Positions 4,878-23,640 of a stretch of DNA of 30,548 nucleotides are shown here, piece after piece. The DNA is from a virus (lineage: Duplodnaviria; Heunggongvirae; Uroviricota; Caudoviricetes). Below the pieces are notes generated by a model. That model had not been told where the DNA came from. It saw only the letters and a list, made by a program, of their open reading frames with translations, and made no database searches. Position numbers and translations under genes: made by a program. Position 1 is the stretch's first letter. Each line of letters opens with the position of its first letter. Location of the stretch: IMG/VR virus record IMGVR_UViG_3300045988_118519, one strand, 5' to 3'.

Positions 4878-5570
4878 TTAATTGTGTCGCTTAAGGGTTT
4901 GTGACTGACTGATTAAGACCTTTCCAAAGACCATAAACCGGTGTTCGTTTTCGCTGGTAATTCCCCATTCGCGGTAAATCTGATTATCAGAAATTACCAG
5001 CAGTTTATCAGGTATCATTTGCAGTCGTTTGACGTAAATTTTATCATCAAAACCAAATACATATATACCATCCCCATCAAACTGATTGATACTGATATCA
5101 ACGAAGATGAGATCTCCTGGCTCAATGGTTGGACACATACTGTCCCCACGAACGTTGATAACTTTAATGTGATTTGCTGGTCGTCCACCAAACATCGATA
5201 CAGCATTATCAGTTCTGTATTCAATGGCATGAATCACATCAATGACATCACCGCCCTGGATAAGGCCATTTCCCGCACTGGCACTGACATCCAGCATTTC
5301 AATACGGAATACATCCTTCACCTGCGCAACATCCTCACTAATACTGTTTTTACATACAGTATTACTTTTGAGGTCTGAGGTAAAGAGATCAGCAATATCA
5401 ACACCTAAGCTCCTGGCAATATTACTCAGGGCTTGTTCAGTGAATTGTTTCTGCTTACCTGTTTCGAGGCGCGAGATATTCGCCGCATCCACTCCTATTG
5501 CTTCAGCGAGATCGGCGATTTTCATGTTCTTCGCCTGGCGAAGTTGTCTGACTCGATTTCCTATGTTCAT
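4878..5570 (-). CDS. cI-like repressor (XRE HTH plus S24 LexA-like peptidase domain), 230 aa
   Basis: N-term RVRQLRQAKNMKIADLAEAIGVDAANISRLE HTH; Ala-Gly site in SASAGNG; GDSM Ser and VKRL Lys dyad; no SD upstream of ATG (possibly leaderless). Confidence 0.9.
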   Translation of the reverse strand: MNIGNRVRQLRQAKNMKIADLAEAIGVDAANISRLETGKQKQFTEQALSNIARSLGVDIADLFTSDLKSNTVCKNSISEDVAQVKDVFRIEMLDVSASAGNGLIQGGDVIDVIHAIEYRTDNAVSMFGGRPANHIKVINVRGDSMCPTIEPGDLIFVDISINQFDGDGIYVFGFDDKIYVKRLQMIPDKLLVISDNQIYREWGITSENEHRFMVFGKVLISQSQTLKRHN

Positions 5571-5667: not shown

Positions 5668-5928
5668 ATGCAATCACCATTACGGAATGTGCGTAAGGCG
5701 CACGGATTTACTTTGCAGCATGTTGCTGCGGGCGTTCAGGTCAATCCAGCGACGCTGAGTCGTATTGAAAGACTGGAACAAATTCCATCTATCGATCTTG
5801 CAGAACGTCTGGCCAATTTTTTTAAGGGTGAAATCAGCGAAATGCAGATTCTTTATCCGGCACGTTTTCAATCTAGCCAAAACCAGAATGGGTTTAAACC
5901 ACAGGAACAGGAGGTAAGCCGTGGGTAA
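5668..5928 (+). CDS. Cro-like XRE-family HTH regulator, 86 aa
   Basis: VRKAHGFTLQHVAAGVQVNPATLSRIE HTH; divergent from the repressor gene. Confidence 0.8.
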   Translation: MQSPLRNVRKAHGFTLQHVAAGVQVNPATLSRIERLEQIPSIDLAERLANFFKGEISEMQILYPARFQSSQNQNGFKPQEQEVSRG

Positions 5929-6472
5929 GCATCATTGGAAAGTGGAAAAACAACCTGAGTGGTACGTGAAAGCTGTCAGAAAAACTATCGCGGCATTGCC
6001 TGGGGGTTACGCTGAAGCTGCTGACTGGCTGGATGTAACAGAGAACGCTTTATTCAACCGCCTTCGTGCAGATGGCGATCAGATTTTCCCGCTGGGATGG
6101 GCAATGGTTTTACAGCGCGCGGCTGGCACTCACTACATTGCGGATGCTGTCGCACAGTCTGCTGGTGGGGTGTTCGTATCGCTTCCTGAAATTGAGGAAG
6201 TAGAGAACGCCGATATAAACCAGCGCCTGCTGGAAGTCATCGAACAGATCGGGAATTACTCAAAGCAGATTCGTTCGGCAATCGAAGATGGGGTCGTGGA
6301 GCCACACGAGCAGACAGCAATTAATGATGAGTTGTATCTGTCAATTTCGAAGCTCCAGGAGCATGCAGCACTGGTCTACAAAATCTTCTGCGCTCCAGAA
6401 AAGAGTGACGCCCGCGAGTGTGCAGCTCCGGGCGTCGTGGCGTTTTGTGTCTGTGGAGAAACTAACGCATGA
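5921..6472 (+). CDS. CII-like phage regulatory protein (CP76-type), 183 aa
   Basis: GTG start with AGGAGG RBS at 6 nt; position after cro; family assignment from recall. Confidence 0.55.
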   Translation: MGKHHWKVEKQPEWYVKAVRKTIAALPGGYAEAADWLDVTENALFNRLRADGDQIFPLGWAMVLQRAAGTHYIADAVAQSAGGVFVSLPEIEEVENADINQRLLEVIEQIGNYSKQIRSAIEDGVVEPHEQTAINDELYLSISKLQEHAALVYKIFCAPEKSDARECAAPGVVAFCVCGETNA

Positions 6473-6882
6473 ACAGTTTAACGGCAAATAACCGTTTGTC
6501 GCAACAGCTGGTGGTCAGTGTCGCTGAACACCTGTTGTTACGGCATGAATGCAGATTACCAAATCACTTGGCTGTAAGTAACCACAGAGAACTTTACCTG
6601 ACTGTGGGGGGCGAGTTGTGCAGGAACTTAACCGCTGGTTTCGTGACGGAAGAGGGCTTTATGTCCATGTTATTCGTTGGGAGCCAGAAACACAGCGCGT
6701 TATCTATCTTCGCAAAGACTACCCGCATGAGTGCTTTAGTCCTTTGTGGAAATTCAGGCGTGATTTTGTTGAGTGTGAAGGACCACCAGCACATTGATTC
6801 TGCCATTCCGGGACGTTACACTGTTCAGGCACCTTATAAAGCGGGTGCCGGGCGTGGAAACTCGGAATTCACCAAAGCGCAC

Positions 6883-6905
6883 AACCGCGCTCTTGCGGTT
6901 TTTTT
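6883..6905 (+). terminator. Rho-independent terminator-like hairpin AACCGC-gctctt-GCGGTT plus TTTTTTT
   Basis: Read directly; lies inside the long frame that continues into Rha. Confidence 0.5.
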
Positions 6906-7074
6906 GTGTAATGAGCAGCATTACGCCCAAATTATGGTGGGGCGTGCAGGGCCAACTTCGGTTGGGCCGGGTTCTTTGGTGACCGGTATTTCCACCCCTG
7001 TACGTCTCACCACCAATAAGGTCGTGGAAAGCCTTGGTGGTGAGTTATTAAAAATCACCAAAGAGGCTGCCATC

Positions 7075-7620
7075 ATGGCTACGATCCCAACCCTCACTCA
7101 ACCTGAAATTGCCATCGTTGATGGTCAGGCTGTTACTTCATCCCTGGCTGTTGCCAACTTCTTCTCCAAACGTCATGACGATGTACTGAAAAAGATCCGC
7201 ACGCTTGAATGCTCTGCATCATTCACTTCCCGCAATTTTTCGGCGAGTGATTACACCGATTGCACAGGCCGCAAACTACCTTGCTATCAAATAACCCGCG
7301 ACGGCTTTGCGTTTCTTGCTATGGGTTTCACGGGTAAACGTGCTGCCCAGTTCAAAGAGGCATACATCAATGCCTTTAACCAGATGGAGAAACAGCTTTC
7401 AAATCCCTCTGTACTGAGCGACGTTGCACATAACGCCAGCGTTCTCTATTCCTACATTTCATCAATTCATCAGGTCTGGCTGCAGCAGCTTTATCCTATG
7501 TTGGCAAAAGCCGAATCTCCGCTGGCTGTTAGCTTGTATGACTATATTAATGATGCTTCGGCACTGGCCTGCCTCATAAATTTGTCGCTGAACCCTTCAG
7601 AGGTAAGGGGGCGCAAATGA
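7075..7620 (+). CDS. Rha-family phage regulatory protein, 181 aa as called (the frame is open from 6469)
   Basis: IVDGQAVTSSLAVANFFSKRHDDVLKKIRTL matches the Rha N-terminal domain; ATG at 7075 with AGAGG RBS. Confidence 0.7.
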   Translation: MATIPTLTQPEIAIVDGQAVTSSLAVANFFSKRHDDVLKKIRTLECSASFTSRNFSASDYTDCTGRKLPCYQITRDGFAFLAMGFTGKRAAQFKEAYINAFNQMEKQLSNPSVLSDVAHNASVLYSYISSIHQVWLQQLYPMLAKAESPLAVSLYDYINDASALACLINLSLNPSEVRGRK

Positions 7621-7841
7621 TCCGGAATATTTTCAAACGGTTTACCAATCAGACTTTCCGTTGTCCTCGTCCGGGTCAGTGGTACACCACACCTGCAGGG
7701 CATGTTCTACGTGTTAGCCTGGTTGACCGTGAATGTCAGAAGGTGATTTGTGAACCGCTGGGCCGTAGTTACCGCGTCAGTATGCCGCTTATAGCCTTTC
7801 GCTCCGGAAAAAACATGAAGCATCTCGGAGGTGCTGCATGA
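7617..7841 (+). CDS. Hypothetical protein, 74 aa
   Basis: ATGA start/stop overlap with both neighbours (translational coupling); GGGGG RBS. Confidence 0.5.
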   Translation: MIRNIFKRFTNQTFRCPRPGQWYTTPAGHVLRVSLVDRECQKVICEPLGRSYRVSMPLIAFRSGKNMKHLGGAA

Positions 7842-8656
7842 GTATGGAGCTGATGGTTAAAGCGATGAAAATTCGAGTGGGTAATCCATTGCGAAAACTG
7901 GTTCTGATCAAGCTGGCTGATAATGCCAGCGATCAGGGGGAGTGCTGGCCCAGCTACCAGCATATTGCTGACCAGTGCGAGATTAGCAAACGTTCTGTGA
8001 TGAATCATATTGCGGCCCTTTGTGAGTCCGGGCTGGTAAAAAAAGTCACCCGGAAAGGTGAAAAAGGTAACTCAAGTAATATCTATCTCCTTCATCTGGA
8101 TGGTGCAGGAGATTCACTAGGGGGTAGTGCAAATAATTCACTATCTGGTGCAGCAAATTCACCAGGTAGTGCAGGAGTTGCACCAGGGGGTAGTGCAGGA
8201 GATTCACCCAGAACCAGTCACTCTTTTGAACCAGTCAAAGAACCAGTCAATGAACCAATAGCTGTTGGTGCATCAGTTGATGAGTCCGTGCGAGTTCGTT
8301 CAAACCGACCGGAATACTCTCCGGAGTTTGAGCAGGCATGGCTGGTATATCCCAAACGTGCTGGTGGCAATTCAAAATCTGCAGCCTTCAAAGCCTGGAA
8401 AGCCCGTTTGAATGAGGGGGTAAACCCCGAAACCATGCTGGAAGGTGTGAAACGCTACGCGGGCTGGGTATCTGCGATGGGTAACAGCGGCACACAATTT
8501 GTGAAACAGGCTGTTACGTTCTTTGGTCCGGATCGTCATTTCGAAGAATCCTGGGAAGTTCCTGCGGTATCTGCAGCCAGACGCGAGGACCCGTACTTCA
8601 AAGCCAGTTACGACAACGTGGACTACAGCCAGATCCCGGCAGGATTCAGGGGGTGA
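7838..8656 (+). CDS. Phage replication initiator (O-like; N-terminal winged HTH), 272 aa
   Basis: N-term KLADNASDQGECWPSYQHIADQCEISKRSVMNHIAALCESGLV wHTH; internal iteron-like repeats; position after cII/Rha. Confidence 0.6.
   Translation: MSMELMVKAMKIRVGNPLRKLVLIKLADNASDQGECWPSYQHIADQCEISKRSVMNHIAALCESGLVKKVTRKGEKGNSSNIYLLHLDGAGDSLGGSANNSLSGAANSPGSAGVAPGGSAGDSPRTSHSFEPVKEPVNEPIAVGASVDESVRVRSNRPEYSPEFEQAWLVYPKRAGGNSKSAAFKAWKARLNEGVNPETMLEGVKRYAGWVSAMGNSGTQFVKQAVTFFGPDRHFEESWEVPAVSAARREDPYFKASYDNVDYSQIPAGFRG
8102..8260 (+). repeat. Iteron-like direct repeats (candidate replication origin) inside the initiator gene
   Basis: Five copies of about 20 bp with core GTGCAGGAGATTCAC starting near 8102, 8123, 8147, 8166, 8189; then three copies of GAACCAGTCA (8211-8250). 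Confidence 0.6.
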
Positions 8657-8658
8657 TC

Positions 8659-9147
8659 ATGAGTCTTTTGAATGAAGTTCAGAAATTCATTGAAGCCCAT
8701 CCGGGGTGTACTTCCGGAGACATTGCGGATGCTTTTGCAGGTTACTCACGGCAGCGCGTTCTGCAGTCAGCAAGCAAGTTACGTCAGAGTGGGCGTGTGG
8801 CTCACCGTTGTGAAGGAGATACACGCAGACATTTCCCGCGCCTGACTGAGAGAGCGCAGGAACCGGAACCACAACCAGTTCGAGAAACCAGACCTGTGCG
8901 CAATTTCTATGTCGGCACTAACGATCCACGGGTGATTTTGTGCCTGACCCGCCAGGCTGAAGAACTGGAGTCCAGGGGCTTATACCGTCGTGCTGCAACC
9001 GTGTGGATGGCGGCATTCCGTGAAAGCCACTCCCAGCCAGAACGAAACAATTTTCTGGCGCGTCGTGAGCGGTGCTTACGGAAAAGCAGCAAGCGCGCTG
9101 CATCGGGTGAAGAGTGGTATCTGTCAGGGAATTACGTGGGGGCTTAA
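8659..9147 (+). CDS. wHTH protein with ANR/PerC-like C-terminal region, 162 aa
   Basis: C-terminal LTRQAEELESRGLYRRAATVWMAAF resembles the ANR-family motif; family call is tentative. Confidence 0.45.
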   Translation: MSLLNEVQKFIEAHPGCTSGDIADAFAGYSRQRVLQSASKLRQSGRVAHRCEGDTRRHFPRLTERAQEPEPQPVRETRPVRNFYVGTNDPRVILCLTRQAEELESRGLYRRAATVWMAAFRESHSQPERNNFLARRERCLRKSSKRAASGEEWYLSGNYVGA

Positions 9148-9800
9148 TGAGTAATAAATATTGCCAGGCGCTGGTGGAGCTGCGGAACAAACCAGCCCAT
9201 GAACTGAAGGAAGTGGGCGATCAGTGGCGCACGCCGGACAACATTTTCTGGGGAATTAACACCCTGTTTGGCCCGTTTGTTCTGGATCTGTTTACTGACG
9301 GTGATAACGCCAAATGTGCCGCGTATTACACGGCGGAAGATAACGCGCTGGCGCATGACTGGTCAGAACGTCTTGCGGAGCTTAAAGGTGCTGCCTTTGG
9401 TAATCCCCCGTACAGCCGCGCCAGTCAGCATGAGGGGCAATACATCACCGGCATGCGTTACATCATGAAGCATGCCAGTGCCATGCGTGATAAAGGCGGG
9501 CGCTATGTTTTCCTGATCAAAGCTGCCACCAGCGAAGTGTGGTGGCCGGAAGATGCAGACCATATTGCTTTTATTCGCGGGCGTATTGGTTTTGAACTGC
9601 CAGCCTGGTTTATCCCGAAGGACGAGAAGCAGGTGCCGACAGGCGCTTTCTTCGCTGGTGCTATTGCTGTTTTCGACAAGACCTGGAAGGGACCGGCAAT
9701 CAGCTACATCGGGCGTGATGAACTTGAGGCATGTGGTGAGGCGTTTCTGGCGCAGGTTCGCCAGCAGGCGGAAAAACTGGTCAGGGAGATGGCGGCATGA
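9147..9800 (+). CDS. Phage Dam-like N6-adenine DNA methyltransferase, 217 aa
   Basis: Catalytic GNPPY motif; ATG overlaps upstream stop (TAATGA). Confidence 0.8.
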   Translation: MSNKYCQALVELRNKPAHELKEVGDQWRTPDNIFWGINTLFGPFVLDLFTDGDNAKCAAYYTAEDNALAHDWSERLAELKGAAFGNPPYSRASQHEGQYITGMRYIMKHASAMRDKGGRYVFLIKAATSEVWWPEDADHIAFIRGRIGFELPAWFIPKDEKQVPTGAFFAGAIAVFDKTWKGPAISYIGRDELEACGEAFLAQVRQQAEKLVREMAA

Positions 9801-13874: not shown

Positions 13875-14927
13875 ATGAAAAATACTGTAAAAATAAACAG
13901 TGTTGATTTAATCAACGCTGATTGCCTGCATTTTATTCAGTCCCTGCCTGATGATTCCATTGACCTGATTGTTACCGATCCGCCGTACTTCAAGGTGAAA
14001 CCCAACGGCTGGGACAATCAGTGGAAAGGGGACGAAGATTACCTTAAGTGGCTGGACCACTGTCTGGCCCAGTTCTGGCGGGTGTTAAAACCTGCCGGAA
14101 GCCTTTACCTGTTCTGTGGGCATCGCCTGGCATCTGATATTGAGATCATGATGCGTGAACGTTTCAACGTGCTTAACCATATCATCTGGGCGAAGCCGTC
14201 CGGACGTTGGAATGGGTGTAATAAAGAAAGTCTGCGTGCATATTTTCCTGCCACAGAGCGCGTTCTGTTTGCTGAACATTACCAGGGGCCATATCGCGGC
14301 AAAAGTGACGGCTATGCGGCAAAAGAAAGGGAACTCAAACAGCACATAATGGCACCGCTGATTTCGTATTTCAGGGATGCTCGTGCCGAACTGGGTATAA
14401 CGGCAAAACAAATTGCCGAAGCCACAGGTAAGAAAAATATGGTTTCCCACTGGTTTGGTGCCAGTCAGTGGCAGTTGCCGAATGAGGCTGACTACCGGAA
14501 GTTACAGGCACTGTTTTCCCGTATAGCGGCAGAGAAGTTTCAGGAACAACAACTGGAACAACCACACCACCAGCTGGTGGCATCTTATGATTCACTGAAT
14601 CGCAAATATTCTGAATTGCTGGATGAGTTTAAATCTCTCCGGCGCTATTTCTCCGTATCAGTCTCCGTGCCTTATACCGATGTCTGGATGCATAAACCCG
14701 TTCAGTTCTACCCGGGGAAACATCCGTGTGAGAAACCGGCGGATATGCTCAGGCAAATAATCAATGCCAGTAGTCGACCAGGTGATCTGGTTGCTGATTT
14801 TTTTATGGGATCCGGTTCCACAATAAAAGCAGCAATGGCGCTGGGGCGTCGGGCCTTAGGTGTTGAGCTTGAGTCAGAGCGGTTTAACCAGACAGTGAAA
14901 GAGATAAACGAGCTGGTGGGGAAATAA
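13875..14927 (+). CDS. Beta-class DNA methyltransferase (N6-adenine or N4-cytosine), 350 aa
   Basis: Motif IV TDPPYF near N-terminus and motif [10 protein letters not shown] near C-terminus (beta-class order) with a long central insert. Confidence 0.85.
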
Positions 14928-21668: not shown

Positions 21669-23640
21669 TTCCTGGTTCAGGATGCAGGCTGGTCACCAGA
21701 GTGACGCGGATATTTATATTTATGACGAGATTGGTTTCTGGGGTGTTACAGCGAAGCAGTTTATCAGTGATCTGAATGCACTGGGCGATATCACCCACAT
21801 TAATCTCCATATTAATTCACCGGGTGGCGATGTCTTTGAAGGCATCGCCATTTTTAATGCGCTGAAAACACATGGGGCGTCCATTACCGTTTATGTCGAC
21901 GGTGTGGCGGCGTCAATGGCGTCGGTCATTGCGATGGTGGGAAACCCGGTCATTATGCCGGAAAACACCTTCATGATGATTCATAAACCATTTGGCTTTA
22001 CGGGCGGTGATGCGGAGGACATGCGCACCTATGCCGACCTGCTCGATAAGGTTGAGGCGGTTCTGTTACCCGCTTATGCACAGAAAACCGGGAAAACCAC
22101 CGATGAAATTGCTGCCATGCTGGCGGATGAGACCTGGATGTCCGGTGCCGAATGTCTGGCACATGGATTTGCTGATCAGGTAACGCCAGCCGTTAAGGCA
22201 ATGGCATGTATTCAGTCAAAACGTACAGAGGAATTTAAAAAGATGCCGGAATCCATTCGAAACATGATTACTCCGCCACGCAACAGTGCTCCACGCGTAC
22301 AGGATAATGAACCTGTAGCCTCCCGGACGCCAGTGCAGGCAGCAGCACCTGTGGTGGATGAAAACAGTATCCGTGCGCAGGTACTGGCAGAGCAAAAAGC
22401 GCGTGTAAACGGTATTAATGATTTGTTTGCCATGTTTGGCGGGCGTTATCAGACGCTGCAGGCTCAGTGTCTTGCCGATCCTGAATGTTCGCTGGAGCAA
22501 GCCCGCGAAAAGCTGTTGAACGAGATGGGGCGCGAGTCCACGCCATCCAATAAAAATACCCCGGCTCATATTTATGCCGGTAACGGTAATTTTGTGGGGG
22601 ACGGGATCCGCCAGGCGCTGATGGCGCGTGCCGGATTTGAAAAAACCGAACGTGATAATGTCTACAACGGGATGACCCTGCGTGAATATGCTCGTATGTC
22701 ACTGACTGAACGGGGGATTGGGGTTTCCAGTTATAACCCGATGCAGATGGTCGGTGCGGCGTTCACACACAGTACGTCTGACTTCGGTAATATTCTGCTG
22801 GATGTTGCGAACAAAGCCATTCTGCAGGGCTGGGAAGATGCCCCTGAAACCTATGAACAGTGGACGCGGAAAGGTCAGTTGTCTGATTTTAAAATTGCCC
22901 ATCGTGTGGGTATGGGGGGCTTCAGTGCTCTGCGTCAGGTGCGTGAAGGGGCGGAATATAAATACGTCACCACCGGAGATAAACAGGCCACTATTGCACT
23001 GGCGACCTATGGCGAGCTGTTCAGTATCACCCGTCAGGCCATTATCAATGATGATCTGAATATGCTGACCGATGTCCCGATGAAACTGGGCCGTGCGGCG
23101 AAATCCACTATTGCCGATCTGGTTTATGCCATTCTGACGTCTAACCCGAAAATCTCCACAGATAATGTAAGTCTGTTCGATAAAGCGAAACATGCAAACG
23201 TACTGGAGAGCGCTGCAATGGACGTGGCATCGCTGGATAAAGCCCGCCAGTTGATGCGTGTTCAGAAAGAGGGGGAGCGTCATCTGAATATTCGTCCTGC
23301 GTTCGTACTGGTACCGACGGCGATGGAGTCTGTTGCTAACCAGGTCATTCGCTCCTCAAGTGTCAAGGGGGCTGACATTAACGCCGGTATTATTAACCCG
23401 GTGAAAGATTTTGCGACCGTTATTGCAGAGCCTCGTCTTGATGATAACAGCCAGACCACTTTCTACCTGGCTGCGTCCAAAGGCTCCGATACGATTGAAG
23501 TGGCTTATCTCAACGGTGTGGATACGCCATATATTGATCAGATGGAGGGCTTCAGTGTGGATGGCGTGACAACGAAAGTGCGTATTGACGCCGGTGTCGC
23601 GCCAGTTGATCACCGCGGTCTGGTGAAATGTACGGCGTAA
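21613..23640 (+). CDS. Prohead protease (ClpP/S49-like) fused to major capsid protein (Mu gpT-like fold), 675 aa
   Basis: GTG with AAGGAGG RBS at 21601; N-terminal ClpP-like INSPGGDV and AASMAS; long C-terminal capsid-like region; single uninterrupted frame. Confidence 0.8.
   Translation: MPQRNDRSRSTPTTSPKNNSWFRMQAGHQSDADIYIYDEIGFWGVTAKQFISDLNALGDITHINLHINSPGGDVFEGIAIFNALKTHGASITVYVDGVAASMASVIAMVGNPVIMPENTFMMIHKPFGFTGGDAEDMRTYADLLDKVEAVLLPAYAQKTGKTTDEIAAMLADETWMSGAECLAHGFADQVTPAVKAMACIQSKRTEEFKKMPESIRNMITPPRNSAPRVQDNEPVASRTPVQAAAPVVDENSIRAQVLAEQKARVNGINDLFAMFGGRYQTLQAQCLADPECSLEQAREKLLNEMGRESTPSNKNTPAHIYAGNGNFVGDGIRQALMARAGFEKTERDNVYNGMTLREYARMSLTERGIGVSSYNPMQMVGAAFTHSTSDFGNILLDVANKAILQGWEDAPETYEQWTRKGQLSDFKIAHRVGMGGFSALRQVREGAEYKYVTTGDKQATIALATYGELFSITRQAIINDDLNMLTDVPMKLGRAAKSTIADLVYAILTSNPKISTDNVSLFDKAKHANVLESAAMDVASLDKARQLMRVQKEGERHLNIRPAFVLVPTAMESVANQVIRSSSVKGADINAGIINPVKDFATVIAEPRLDDNSQTTFYLAASKGSDTIEVAYLNGVDTPYIDQMEGFSVDGVTTKVRIDAGVAPVDHRGLVKCTA

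What the first reader, a model, noticed from the sequence alone, without database searches (positions are those of the whole stretch)
8102..8260. Iteron array inside the replication initiator gene (candidate origin)
About five 20-bp repeats with core GTGCAGGAGATTCAC, then three GAACCAGTCA repeats, are embedded in the coding sequence and encode a Gly/Ser/Ala-rich linker. This mirrors lambda, where ori lies inside O. No P/DnaC-like helicase loader gene follows, so the mode of helicase recruitment is open.
Basis: partly seen in the sequence, partly recalled or inferred. Interest (0 to 1): 0.45.

Follow-up and report, generated by a model that had tools for sequence, protein, structure and literature searches.

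The report
Phage replication origin inside initiator gene
The repeats are real and are almost certainly the replication origin of an E. coli lambdoid prophage, written inside the gene of the protein that binds it, as in phage lambda but with an unrelated initiator family.

Summary
Five dyad-symmetric 15-bp sites (GTGNA-N5-TNCAC) lie at 8103-8207, 21 or 24 bp apart. Three GAACCAGTCA copies follow at 8211-8249. All sit in the linker of a 272-aa initiator gene (7838-8656; HTH_36 winged helix; SfV orf39 / mEp460 / Stx-phage "Eru6" type).

Comparison with about 200 related loci shows that the DNA is selected, not the peptide:
- The same sites recur in other reading frames and in inverted orientation.
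- The half-site sequence changes together with the recognition helix of the N-terminal domain.
- A mosaic junction falls exactly at the end of the iteron array.

The GAACCAGTCA repeats belong to a separate 38-bp block. Its nucleotides are nearly invariant from E. coli to Pseudomonas and Vibrio phages, with no codon periodicity. It is the deepest GC trough within ±400 bp, so it is probably the unwinding element.

The layout copies lambda ori, but the protein shows no detectable similarity to lambda O. No helicase or loader gene is present here. Relatives with a homologous C-domain carry a DnaC-like gene next door, so host DnaB/DnaC use is inferred.

No experiment supports any of this. I found no earlier description in the papers I could search. 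Verdict: a new member of a known kind, of moderate interest.

The parts
7838..8656 (+). Replication initiator gene (272 aa). SfV orf39 / mEp460 gp43 / 'Eru6' HTH_36 protein.
   Evidence: ORF. Pfam HTH_36 E=1.8e-11, 44.1 bits against a cut-off of 25. PHROG 270 'replication initiation protein' E=7e-88. 98-100% nt identity to SfV, mEp460, Stx2c and Stx2a phages.
7838..8101 (+). N-terminal winged-helix DNA-binding domain (aa 1-88). The predicted recognition helix is aa 51-64 (KRSVMNHIAALCES, nt 7988-8029).
   Evidence: AlphaFold2 pLDDT 77-89, helices 3-11, 17-28, 40-47 and 51-64, wing strands 67-73 and 79-85. Foldseek matches are generic winged helices, including DnaD-N and RepA_N initiators, all with E>0.001. 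The helix sequence co-varies with the iteron half-site.
8103..8117 (.). Iteron 1, GTGCAGGAGATTCAC
8127..8141 (.). Iteron 2, GTGCAAATAATTCAC
8148..8162 (.). Iteron 3, GTGCAGCAAATTCAC
8169..8183 (.). Iteron 4, GTGCAGGAGTTGCAC (perfect 5-bp dyad arms)
8193..8207 (.). Iteron 5, GTGCAGGAGATTCAC. It abuts the constant block at a fixed distance in all relatives.
8208..8244 (+). Constant low-GC block, (C)CCAGAACCAGTCACTCTTTTGAACCAGTCAAAGAACC. Proposed DNA unwinding / helicase-entry element.
   Evidence: Almost every column is at least 90% identical over 83 loci from many genera. Present in 80 of 80 loci that were found by protein patterns alone. No codon periodicity in its conservation. Deepest GC trough within ±400 bp in 192 loci. 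Read in another frame in L025 and L034. Unique in the window.
8211..8256 (+). GAACC(AGTCA) direct repeats inside and just after the block: GAACCAGTCA at 8211, 8228 and 8240, and GAACC at 8252 (spacing 17, 12, 12).
   Evidence: Copy number is 2-4 in close relatives. A degenerate version, four (A/G)GAACC copies 11-13 bp apart, is found in Pseudomonas phage MD8.
8300..8653 (+). C-terminal helical domain (aa about 155-272). Presumed replisome-recruiting domain.
   Evidence: PHROG 1701 'DnaD-like helicase loader' E=7e-33 and PHROG 9327 'primosomal protein'. No Pfam or NCBIfam hit. tblastn hits to proteins annotated YdaU/DUF1376/'phage replisome organizer'. Homologues at 38-72% identity are followed by a DnaC/IstB-like gene.
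8653..9147 (+). PerC-family gene (yfdN-like). It occupies the position where relatives carry a helicase loader. It is not part of the origin.
   Evidence: Pfam PerC E=7.8e-9. Interrupted by IS629 in the Eru6 reference phage Stx2a_WGPS2.

Best explanation
Window 8103-8256 is the phage's origin of replication, embedded in the linker-coding part of its own initiator gene.

Proposed mechanism:
1. Dimers of the initiator's N-terminal winged-helix domain bind the five dyad-symmetric iterons. The 21 or 24 bp spacing puts them about two helical turns apart, on roughly one face of the DNA. This would build a lambda O-some-like nucleoprotein complex.
2. That complex destabilises the adjacent conserved low-GC block (8208-8256, with its GAACC(AGTCA) repeats about 12 nt apart). 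The block serves as the unwinding and helicase-entry site.
3. The C-terminal domain then brings in the replicative helicase. This phage has no loader or helicase gene, while homologous initiators sit next to a DnaC-like gene, so host DnaB and DnaC are most likely used.

Status of each step:
- Shown by sequence comparison: the iterons and the block are under DNA-level selection, and the iteron sequence co-varies and co-inherits with the DNA-binding domain.
- Inferred by analogy with lambda and with iteron plasmids: binding, melting at the block, and the route of helicase recruitment.
For: 1. Repeat statistics: 5 clustered sites, with 0.43 hits expected in the whole window.
2. In 44 loci from Enterobacterales, Pseudomonas, Aeromonas, Shewanella, Marinomonas, Vreelandella, Marinobacter and others, 202 GTGNA-N5-TNCAC sites lie at the same place in the gene. 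In 150 of 158 cases neighbouring sites are 21-24 bp apart. 31 sites are in a different reading frame (VVQEIHQ instead of GAGDS), and many are inverted (GTGAATCTCCTGCAC, read as ESPAP).
3. Co-variation of helix and half-site:
   - KRSVMNHI goes with GTGCA-N5-TKCAC
   - KRSVMRHI and KRTAMRHI go with GTGAC-N5-GTCAC
   - KSAVRxHI goes with TGCC-N7-GGCA
   - RSTVK(L/V/S)HI goes with GGGGCAG-N3-CTGCCCC
   - RSTVR(K/R)HI goes with TGTAGGCCCAGAAAGCAC
   - RKTAIGHI goes with GTGTA-N5-TACAC
4. In L082 the identity to the window jumps from about 30% to about 99% exactly at the first base of the block. The N-domain and its iterons are therefore inherited as one cassette.
5. Block conservation: 80 of 80 loci found by protein patterns carry it with at most 9 of 38 mismatches (chance 1.6e-8 per gene). 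Entropy at codon positions 1/2/3 is 0.32/0.29/0.40 bits, against 0.22/0.15/1.15 in the conserved N-domain peptide. Rare codons (AGA, AGT, TCT) are fixed even in GC-rich Pseudomonas. The substitutions seen are mainly non-synonymous (F/S/L/P).
6. The block is the deepest GC trough within ±400 bp: 0.42 against about 0.60 in GC-rich loci, and 0.38-0.39 against about 0.50 in the others. It directly follows a GC peak at the last iteron.
7. Every block found in viral contigs (120 of 120) lies in a gene of this family. 113 have an intact ORF, 6 are cut by the locus edge and 1 is frameshifted.
8. Synteny: homologous initiators are followed by DnaC/IstB-like (PF01695), lambda-P-like (PF06992) or DnaB-type helicase genes, as in O-P or gene 18-gene 12 pairs.
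9. The order of parts is the same as in annotated lambda ori: four dyad iterons, then an AT-rich tract, inside O (PMC7466680).
10. The ori-encoded segment is predicted to be disordered, so its peptide sequence is probably under weak constraint.
11. Iteron number varies from about 1 to 10 among near-identical E. coli proteins (242-302 aa), like the 4 versus 6 iterons of lambda and Stx phages.
Against: - There are no experimental data for this family: no binding assay, no ori-plasmid test, no replication-initiation mapping.
- The block is only moderately AT-rich in E. coli terms (about 40% GC), and a stretch just upstream of the iterons (8040-8099) is as low.
- No DnaA box, IHF site or promoter accompanies the array. 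This matches lambda but removes independent origin hallmarks.
- The viral-contig loci were found using the block itself as the search pattern, so only the 80 genome loci count as independent evidence for its conservation.
- The host-DnaC inference is weak. Vibrio phages D186 and D79 have the same C-domain type and no annotated loader, although to my knowledge (not checked here) Vibrio hosts use DciA rather than DnaC.
- The C-domain has no curated family assignment.
Confidence: 0.85

Rival explanations
1. The sites are operators, not an origin. The initiator-like protein binds inside its own gene to autoregulate or to block transcription, or the sites control copy number or incompatibility only, and replication starts elsewhere.
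For: Iterons in plasmids often also have regulatory roles. No promoter, DnaA box or IHF site marks the region. One extra matching site lies 600 bp downstream at 8810-8824.
Against: The array is joined at a fixed distance to a conserved low-GC block in all relatives. The gene sits in the O position, and helicase-loader or helicase genes follow it in relatives. No other candidate origin or initiator exists in complete phages of this type. The distal site is not conserved in diverged PerC genes.
Confidence: 0.06
2. The repeats are only a slippage-prone, low-complexity Gly/Ser/Ala linker, and RTSHSFEPVxEP is a peptide motif (for example a docking motif for a replisome protein). The DNA-level similarity would be a by-product.
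For: The repeats are in frame in the window, since every spacing is a multiple of 3. Copy number varies as in slippage. The segment is disordered. The peptide RTSHSFEP is nearly invariant in close relatives.
Against: 31 of 202 sites are in another frame, many are inverted, and they encode unrelated peptides. Each site has internal dyad symmetry, which coding does not require. The sites co-vary with the recognition helix. In the block, third codon positions are as fixed as first and second positions, and the changes are F/S/L/P or H/N swaps. The same DNA is read in another frame in L025, L034 and L157.
Confidence: 0.03
3. The constant 38-bp block is conserved mainly as a recombination 'linker' that lets phages shuffle N-terminal specificity cassettes and C-terminal recruiting domains. 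It would not be the unwinding element.
For: The block lies exactly at the domain boundary. One and the same block joins at least 6 iteron classes to at least 10 C-domain classes. The mosaic junction in L082 is at its first base.
Against: Second-order selection for recombination is unlikely to hold 38 bp at 90% or more from E. coli to Pseudomonas and Vibrio phages. The block is the local GC minimum and sits where lambda has its AT-rich tract. A distant relative (MD8) keeps only the periodic GAACC motif, which suggests a functional repeat rather than mere homology. Acting as a crossover point is better explained as a consequence of its conservation.
Confidence: 0.06

Closest known systems
Phage lambda ori inside gene O (O/P system; also P22 gene 18 and phage L gene 18)
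   Same: The origin lies in the linker-coding middle of the initiator gene. It has 4-6 dyad-symmetric sites of about 15-19 bp, roughly two helical turns apart, followed on the 3' side by a low-GC tract. The N-terminal domain and the iterons form one specificity unit, and the C-terminal domain recruits the helicase system. Iteron number varies between relatives (PMC7466680; phage L preprint).
   Different: The initiator is HTH_36, not Phage_rep_O. Pfam gives no O hit, and hhalign against lambda O gives 1.3% probability. No P gene or any other loader or helicase gene is present in this phage. The low-GC element is a sequence-invariant 38-bp block with GAACC repeats, not a plain A/T run.
'Eru6' replication region of Stx-converting phages (reference Stx2a_WGPS2, AP012537) / SfV orf39 / mEp460 gp43
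   Same: The gene order is the same: cI, cro, cII, Rha/Ash, small ORF, HTH_36 gene, PerC, Dam, LexA-like, RusA, KilA, DUF968, Q. The initiator gene is 98.4% identical at nucleotide level, including all five iterons and the block.
   Different: The Eru papers classify the gene only as an HTH_36 protein and name no origin or iterons. The SfV and mEp460 records annotate no origin.
Iteron-type theta plasmid origins (RK2, R6K, F, pSC101) and oriC
   Same: Winged-helix Rep proteins bind direct repeats next to an unwinding element made of 12-13-mer repeats, and they use host DnaB/DnaC (from my own knowledge of these systems, not tested here).
   Different: Here the origin lies inside the rep gene. 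There are no DnaA boxes. The iterons are dyad-symmetric dimer sites.
DnaD / YdaU (DUF1376) 'replisome organizer' proteins
   Same: There is a weak DnaD_N match (24.3 bits). The PHROG families hit by the C-domain are annotated as DnaD-like loader or primosomal protein. tblastn hits are annotated YdaU/DUF1376/replisome organizer. Relatives have a DnaC-like neighbour, as with ydaU-ydaV of the Rac prophage (my own knowledge).
   Different: The score is below the Pfam cut-off. The C-domain alone has no Pfam or NCBIfam hit, and the structure model of that domain is of low confidence.

Membership tests
Lambda-type in-gene origin (ori-lambda architecture) | Origin located inside the initiator gene, between the DNA-binding and recruiting domains | tested here: met
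   The repeats lie at codons 89-140 of the 272-aa ORF, between the winged helix (aa 1-88) and the helical C-domain.
Lambda-type in-gene origin (ori-lambda architecture) | Four or more dyad-symmetric initiator sites about two helical turns apart | tested here: met
   Five GTGNA-N5-TNCAC sites, 24/21/21/24 bp apart. Lambda for comparison: four 18-bp sites, 20/24/23 bp apart.
Lambda-type in-gene origin (ori-lambda architecture) | Low-GC unwinding tract directly 3' of the last iteron | tested here: met
   GC is 0.375-0.425 at 8200-8259. It is the deepest trough within ±400 bp averaged over 192 loci. Melting itself was not tested.
Lambda-type in-gene origin (ori-lambda architecture) | Initiator binds the iterons, and the fragment supports initiator-dependent replication | not testable with these tools
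   The only evidence is indirect: co-variation of recognition helix and half-site and co-inheritance.
Lambda O protein family (Pfam Phage_rep_O, PF04492) | Sequence homology of the initiator to lambda O | tested here: not met
   No Phage_rep_O hit at E<=0.01. hhalign of the family profile against lambda O gives probability 1.3%.
Lambda O/P module | Helicase loader (P or DnaC-like) or DnaB-type helicase gene immediately downstream | tested here: not met
   The next gene is a PerC-family gene. No such gene exists in the window's early region or in mEp460, NZ_CP148393 or Stx2a_WGPS2. The feature is met in relatives: DnaC/IstB-like in 57 loci, lambda-P-like in 31, DnaB-like in 7.
HTH_36 (PF13730) DNA-binding domain | Score above Pfam's gathering cut-off | tested here: met
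   44.1 bits against 25, E=1.8e-11, aa 17-67.
Eru6-type Stx-phage replication region | Same gene order as the reference Stx2a_WGPS2 and a near-identical HTH_36 gene | tested here: met
   Same gene order. 98.4% nt identity over 819 bp.
DnaD family (DnaD_N PF21984 / DnaB_2) | Score above the curated cut-off | tested here: not met
   DnaD_N scores 24.3 bits against a cut-off of 27. Foldseek matches DnaD-N (2v79) only at E=0.03. There is no C-terminal DnaB_2 hit.
Iteron plasmid origin (DnaA-dependent) | DnaA box(es) next to the iterons | tested here: not met
   TTWTNCACA has its only match at 22074, far from the array.
YdaU/DUF1376 replisome organizer (C-domain) | Detectable homology of aa about 145-272 | tested here: inconclusive
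   No Pfam hit for the isolated C-domain. tblastn finds 45-50% identity to genes annotated as YdaU family or DUF1376 (H85 and H99).

The most novel reading that the evidence does not exclude
The 38-bp block CCCAGAAYCAGTCACTCTnnTGAAYCAGTCAwnGAACC is more than an easily melted stretch. It would be a sequence-specifically read unwinding or helicase-loading element shared by a whole superfamily of phage origins: at least 6 iteron specificities, at least 10 C-terminal domain types, and hosts from E. coli to Pseudomonas, Aeromonas, Shewanella and Vibrio. If so, iterons supply the specificity and the block is a portable, universal origin core. The helix/half-site pairs would then also give a natural recognition code for this winged-helix family.
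Probability: 0.3. Interest if true: 0.6.

Novelty: new member of a known kind. Interest (0 to 1): 0.4.

Why it matters
This replication module is common. A match to the gene occurs in 2718 of 5426 complete E. coli genomes, full-length in 897. It occurs in 291 deposited phage genomes, including SfV, mEp460 and Stx2a/Stx2c-converting phages of the Eru6 type. The published Eru descriptions name no origin.

Locating the origin to about 150 bp has three uses:
- It gives a defined target for studying or blocking replication of these Stx phages, on which toxin gene dosage depends.
- It explains the length polymorphism of the protein as iteron copy number.
- It offers a set of natural helix/half-site pairs and a conserved unwinding block that can be tested directly.

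It also shows how a disordered protein linker can be given over to a DNA function. Conceptually it repeats the lambda solution, so a specialist would find it neat rather than surprising.

Tried and rejected
- Rfam scan of 7600-8900: only a spurious miRNA hit at E=0.066, so no known RNA element. The block contains only direct repeats; I saw no complementary arm that could form a hairpin, but I did not fold it.
- DnaA box, IHF consensus and sigma-70 promoter scans: nothing in or near the array.
- Profile search against PDB sequences: only marginal winged-helix hits with E>=0.19.
- AlphaFold2 with the 20-sequence alignment: good N-domain, unusable C-domain (mean pLDDT 58). Foldseek gave only generic winged helices, so the C-domain fold stays unassigned.
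- NCBIfam: no family for the initiator.
- Literature: the SfV genome paper could not be read. Full-text searches for the block sequence, for SfV plus iteron, and for related term sets found no description of this origin. The pIGRK and pIGMS31 plasmid Rep systems turned out to be unrelated.
- First clustering of C-domains merged everything through the shared block peptide. I repeated it after trimming that peptide.
- 'Host DnaC fills in' as a firm conclusion: downgraded after Vibrio phages with the same C-domain showed no annotated loader. Those genomes contain large unannotated ORFs that I did not examine.
- The sixth pattern match, at 8810-8824 in the PerC gene, was considered as a distal iteron. 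It is not conserved in diverged PerC genes.
Full report
**What is there**

The window is the early region plus part of the late region of an E. coli lambdoid prophage. The gene order is:
- cI-like repressor (4878-5570, minus strand)
- cro (5668-5928)
- cII-like gene (5921-6472)
- Rha/Ash regulator (6469-7620)
- a small ORF (7617-7841)
- a 272-aa gene (7838-8656)
- PerC-family gene (8653-9147)
- Dam methylase, a LexA-like DNA-binding protein, RusA, a KilA-N protein, a DUF968/HNH protein and Q
- then lysis and morphogenesis genes

The 272-aa protein has an HTH_36 domain (44.1 bits against a cut-off of 25). It matches PHROG 270 'replication initiation protein' at E=7e-88. The module is 98-100% identical to SfV orf39, mEp460 gp43 and many Stx2c and Stx2a phages. 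It is 98.4% identical to the reference phage of the 'Eru6' class of Stx-phage replication regions. A match occurs in 2718 of 5426 complete E. coli genomes.

**Observation**

- Five copies of GTGNA-N5-TNCAC lie at 8103, 8127, 8148, 8169 and 8193, spaced 24/21/21/24 bp. The window has 6 hits against 0.43 expected, and no shuffle out of 100 reaches 6.
- GAACCAGTCA occurs exactly three times (8211, 8228, 8240), and a fourth GAACC lies at 8252.
- Each 15-mer is internally dyad-symmetric (GTGCA / TGCAC or TTCAC). Protein coding does not require such symmetry.

**DNA or peptide?**

In the window every spacing is a multiple of three, so the window alone cannot decide. I therefore collected relatives in two ways. 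Eighty genome loci were found by peptide patterns outside the linker. A further 120 viral contigs were found with the block as a DNA pattern.

In 44 loci from at least eight genera, 202 GTGNA-N5-TNCAC sites occupy the same place in the gene. In 150 of 158 cases neighbouring sites are 21-24 bp apart. Thirty-one of the sites are in a different reading frame, where VVQEIHQ replaces GAGDS. Many are inverted (GTGAATCTCCTGCAC, read as ESPAP). The DNA site is therefore what is conserved, and the encoded peptide follows from it. AlphaFold2 predicts aa 91-156 to be disordered, which fits a linker whose sequence is free.

**Who binds?**

Other members of the family carry different dyad repeats at the same place, and the repeat class tracks the predicted recognition helix (aa 51-64):

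| Recognition helix | Iteron half-sites |
|---|---|
| KRSVMNHI | GTGCA-N5-TKCAC |
| KRSVMRHI / KRTAMRHI | GTGAC-N5-GTCAC |
| KSAVRxHI | TGCC-N7-GGCA |
| RSTVK(L/V/S)HI | GGGGCAG-N3-CTGCCCC |
| RSTVR(K/R)HI | TGTAGGCCCAGAAAGCAC |
| RKTAIGHI | GTGTA-N5-TACAC |

Locus L082 carries a different N-domain and a different iteron class, but its C-domain is 98% identical to the window's. Its nucleotide identity to the window jumps from about 30% to about 99% exactly at the first base after the iteron array. So the N-domain and its iterons are inherited as one specificity cassette. This is strong indirect evidence that the N-terminal winged helix binds the repeats in its own gene.

**The second element**

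The GAACCAGTCA repeats are not further iterons. They belong to a 38-bp block, CCCAGAAYCAGTCACTCTnnTGAAYCAGTCAwnGAACC (window 8207-8244).

- Almost every column is at least 90% identical in 83 loci, whatever the iteron class, C-terminal domain or host GC content.
- Among the 80 loci found by protein patterns alone, all carry it with at most 9 of 38 mismatches. The chance expectation is 1.6e-8 per gene.
- Its conservation has no codon periodicity. Entropy at codon positions 1/2/3 is 0.32/0.29/0.40 bits, against 0.22/0.15/1.15 in the conserved GECWPSYQ region of the same genes.
- Rare codons (AGA, AGT, TCT) are fixed even in Pseudomonas. The changes that do occur are non-conservative amino-acid swaps (F/S/L/P, H/N).
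- In L025, L034 and L157 the same DNA is read in another frame.
- The block is the deepest GC trough within ±400 bp. It reaches 0.42 against about 0.60 in GC-rich loci, and 0.38-0.39 against about 0.50 in the others. It directly follows a GC peak at the last iteron, which always abuts it at a fixed distance.
- Every one of the 120 viral-contig occurrences lies in a gene of this family.

More distant relatives add detail. Pseudomonas phage MD8 keeps only four (A/G)GAACC motifs 11-13 bp apart. Vibrio phage D79, which has another N-domain, has iterons followed by an unrelated AT-rich stretch. The block has no Rfam match. It contains only direct repeats; I saw no complementary arm for a hairpin, though I did not fold it.

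I read the block as the unwinding and helicase-entry element, analogous to lambda's AT-rich tract or to the 13-mers of oriC and RK2. That comparison rests on my own knowledge of those systems. Whether the sequence is read specifically remains open; that possibility is the novel case.

**Comparison with lambda**

The annotated lambda origin has four 18-bp dyad iterons, 20/24/23 bp apart, followed by an AT-rich tract, all inside gene O (PMC7466680). The order and orientation of the parts are the same here.

The proteins are not detectably related. Pfam gives no Phage_rep_O hit, and hhalign gives a probability of 1.3%. So this origin works like ori-lambda but is not a member of the lambda O family.

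Iteron copy number varies among near-identical E. coli proteins from about 1 to 10 (242-302 aa). The 12-bp unit varies from 2 to 4 copies. Five iterons plus three units is the common form. This parallels the 4 versus 6 iterons of lambda and Stx phages.

**Helicase recruitment**

The window's early region, mEp460, a circular 44.6-kb copy of the phage deposited as a plasmid, and Stx2a_WGPS2 all lack any helicase, primase or loader gene.

Across the family the gene after the initiator is:
- DnaC/IstB-like in 57 loci (PF01695)
- lambda-P-like in 31 loci (PF06992)
- DnaB-like in 7 loci
- PerC in 30 loci

Within the window's own C-domain class the split is sharp. Members at least 77% identical to the window are followed by PerC. 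Members 38-72% identical are all followed by a DnaC-like gene. The PerC gene is cut by IS629 in the Eru6 reference phage, so it is an unlikely essential replication factor.

I infer that the C-domain works with a DnaC-type loader, and that this lineage relies on host DnaB and DnaC. My confidence in this is only about 0.4. Vibrio phages with the same C-domain type also show no annotated loader, and the C-domain has no curated family assignment.

**Novelty and caveats**

I found no description of this origin. The Eru papers do not mention an origin. The SfV and mEp460 records annotate none. Full-text searches for the sequences or for the concept returned nothing relevant.

The principle itself is textbook knowledge for lambda, P22 and phage L: an origin made of iterons plus a low-GC tract inside the initiator gene.

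Everything here is comparative inference. Binding, melting and replication have not been tested.

**Verdict**

This is a new member of a known kind, of moderate interest. The invariant block is the one feature that could prove more than routine.

Noticed in passing
window 8119-8125 and 8185-8191; relatives: The spacer before an iteron is AGGGGGT in some loci and its exact reverse complement ACCCCCT in others (read as Gly-Gly or Pro-Pro). It always lies on the same side of the core, even when the core is inverted. The G5/C5 tract therefore also looks selected at the DNA level, and it produces the GC peak just before the block.
   Followed up: partly
window 8810-8824 (inside the PerC-family gene): A sixth match to the iteron pattern (GTGAAGGAGATACAC) lies 600 bp downstream of the array. 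It is conserved in near-identical phages but absent from diverged PerC genes, so it is probably chance. A distal regulatory site is not excluded.
   Followed up: partly
L207 (AP012537 Stx2a_WGPS2) 5726-7527: In the Eru6 reference Stx2a phage, the PerC-family gene just after the initiator is interrupted by IS629. This argues that the gene is dispensable for replication, if that phage is viable.
   Followed up: no
L206 (NZ_CP148393.1, 44,611 bp, circular): A complete lambdoid phage genome with a 100% identical initiator protein is deposited as an E. coli 'plasmid'. It has no plasmid replication or partition genes. It is probably an excised, replicating phage genome assembled as a circle.
   Followed up: partly
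L034, L025 and L157 (related loci): Three initiator genes are frameshifted within or just before the iteron/G-run region (for example GGGGT in place of GGGGGT). The homopolymer runs between iterons appear to be hotspots for inactivating slips or for sequencing errors.
   Followed up: no
L209 (Vibrio phage D79) compared with L208 (Vibrio phage D186): Two Vibrio phages share a nearly identical C-domain and downstream genes but have unrelated N-domains. Both use GTGAC-N5-GTCAC-type iterons, yet only D186 has the constant block. This is a natural module swap that could serve to test what the block does.
   Followed up: partly
window 9114-9800 and 13875-14927: The prophage carries two DNA methyltransferase genes: a Dam-family gene just downstream of the replication module, and a second methylase gene before the lysis genes. 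I saw no GATC cluster near the origin when reading the sequence.
   Followed up: no
E. coli K-12 and many other strains (hits covering only query 744-819): Most E. coli genomes keep only the last 76 bp or so of this initiator gene next to yfdN (the CPS-53/KpLE1 remnant). The origin and N-domain have therefore been deleted from that cryptic prophage.
   Followed up: no
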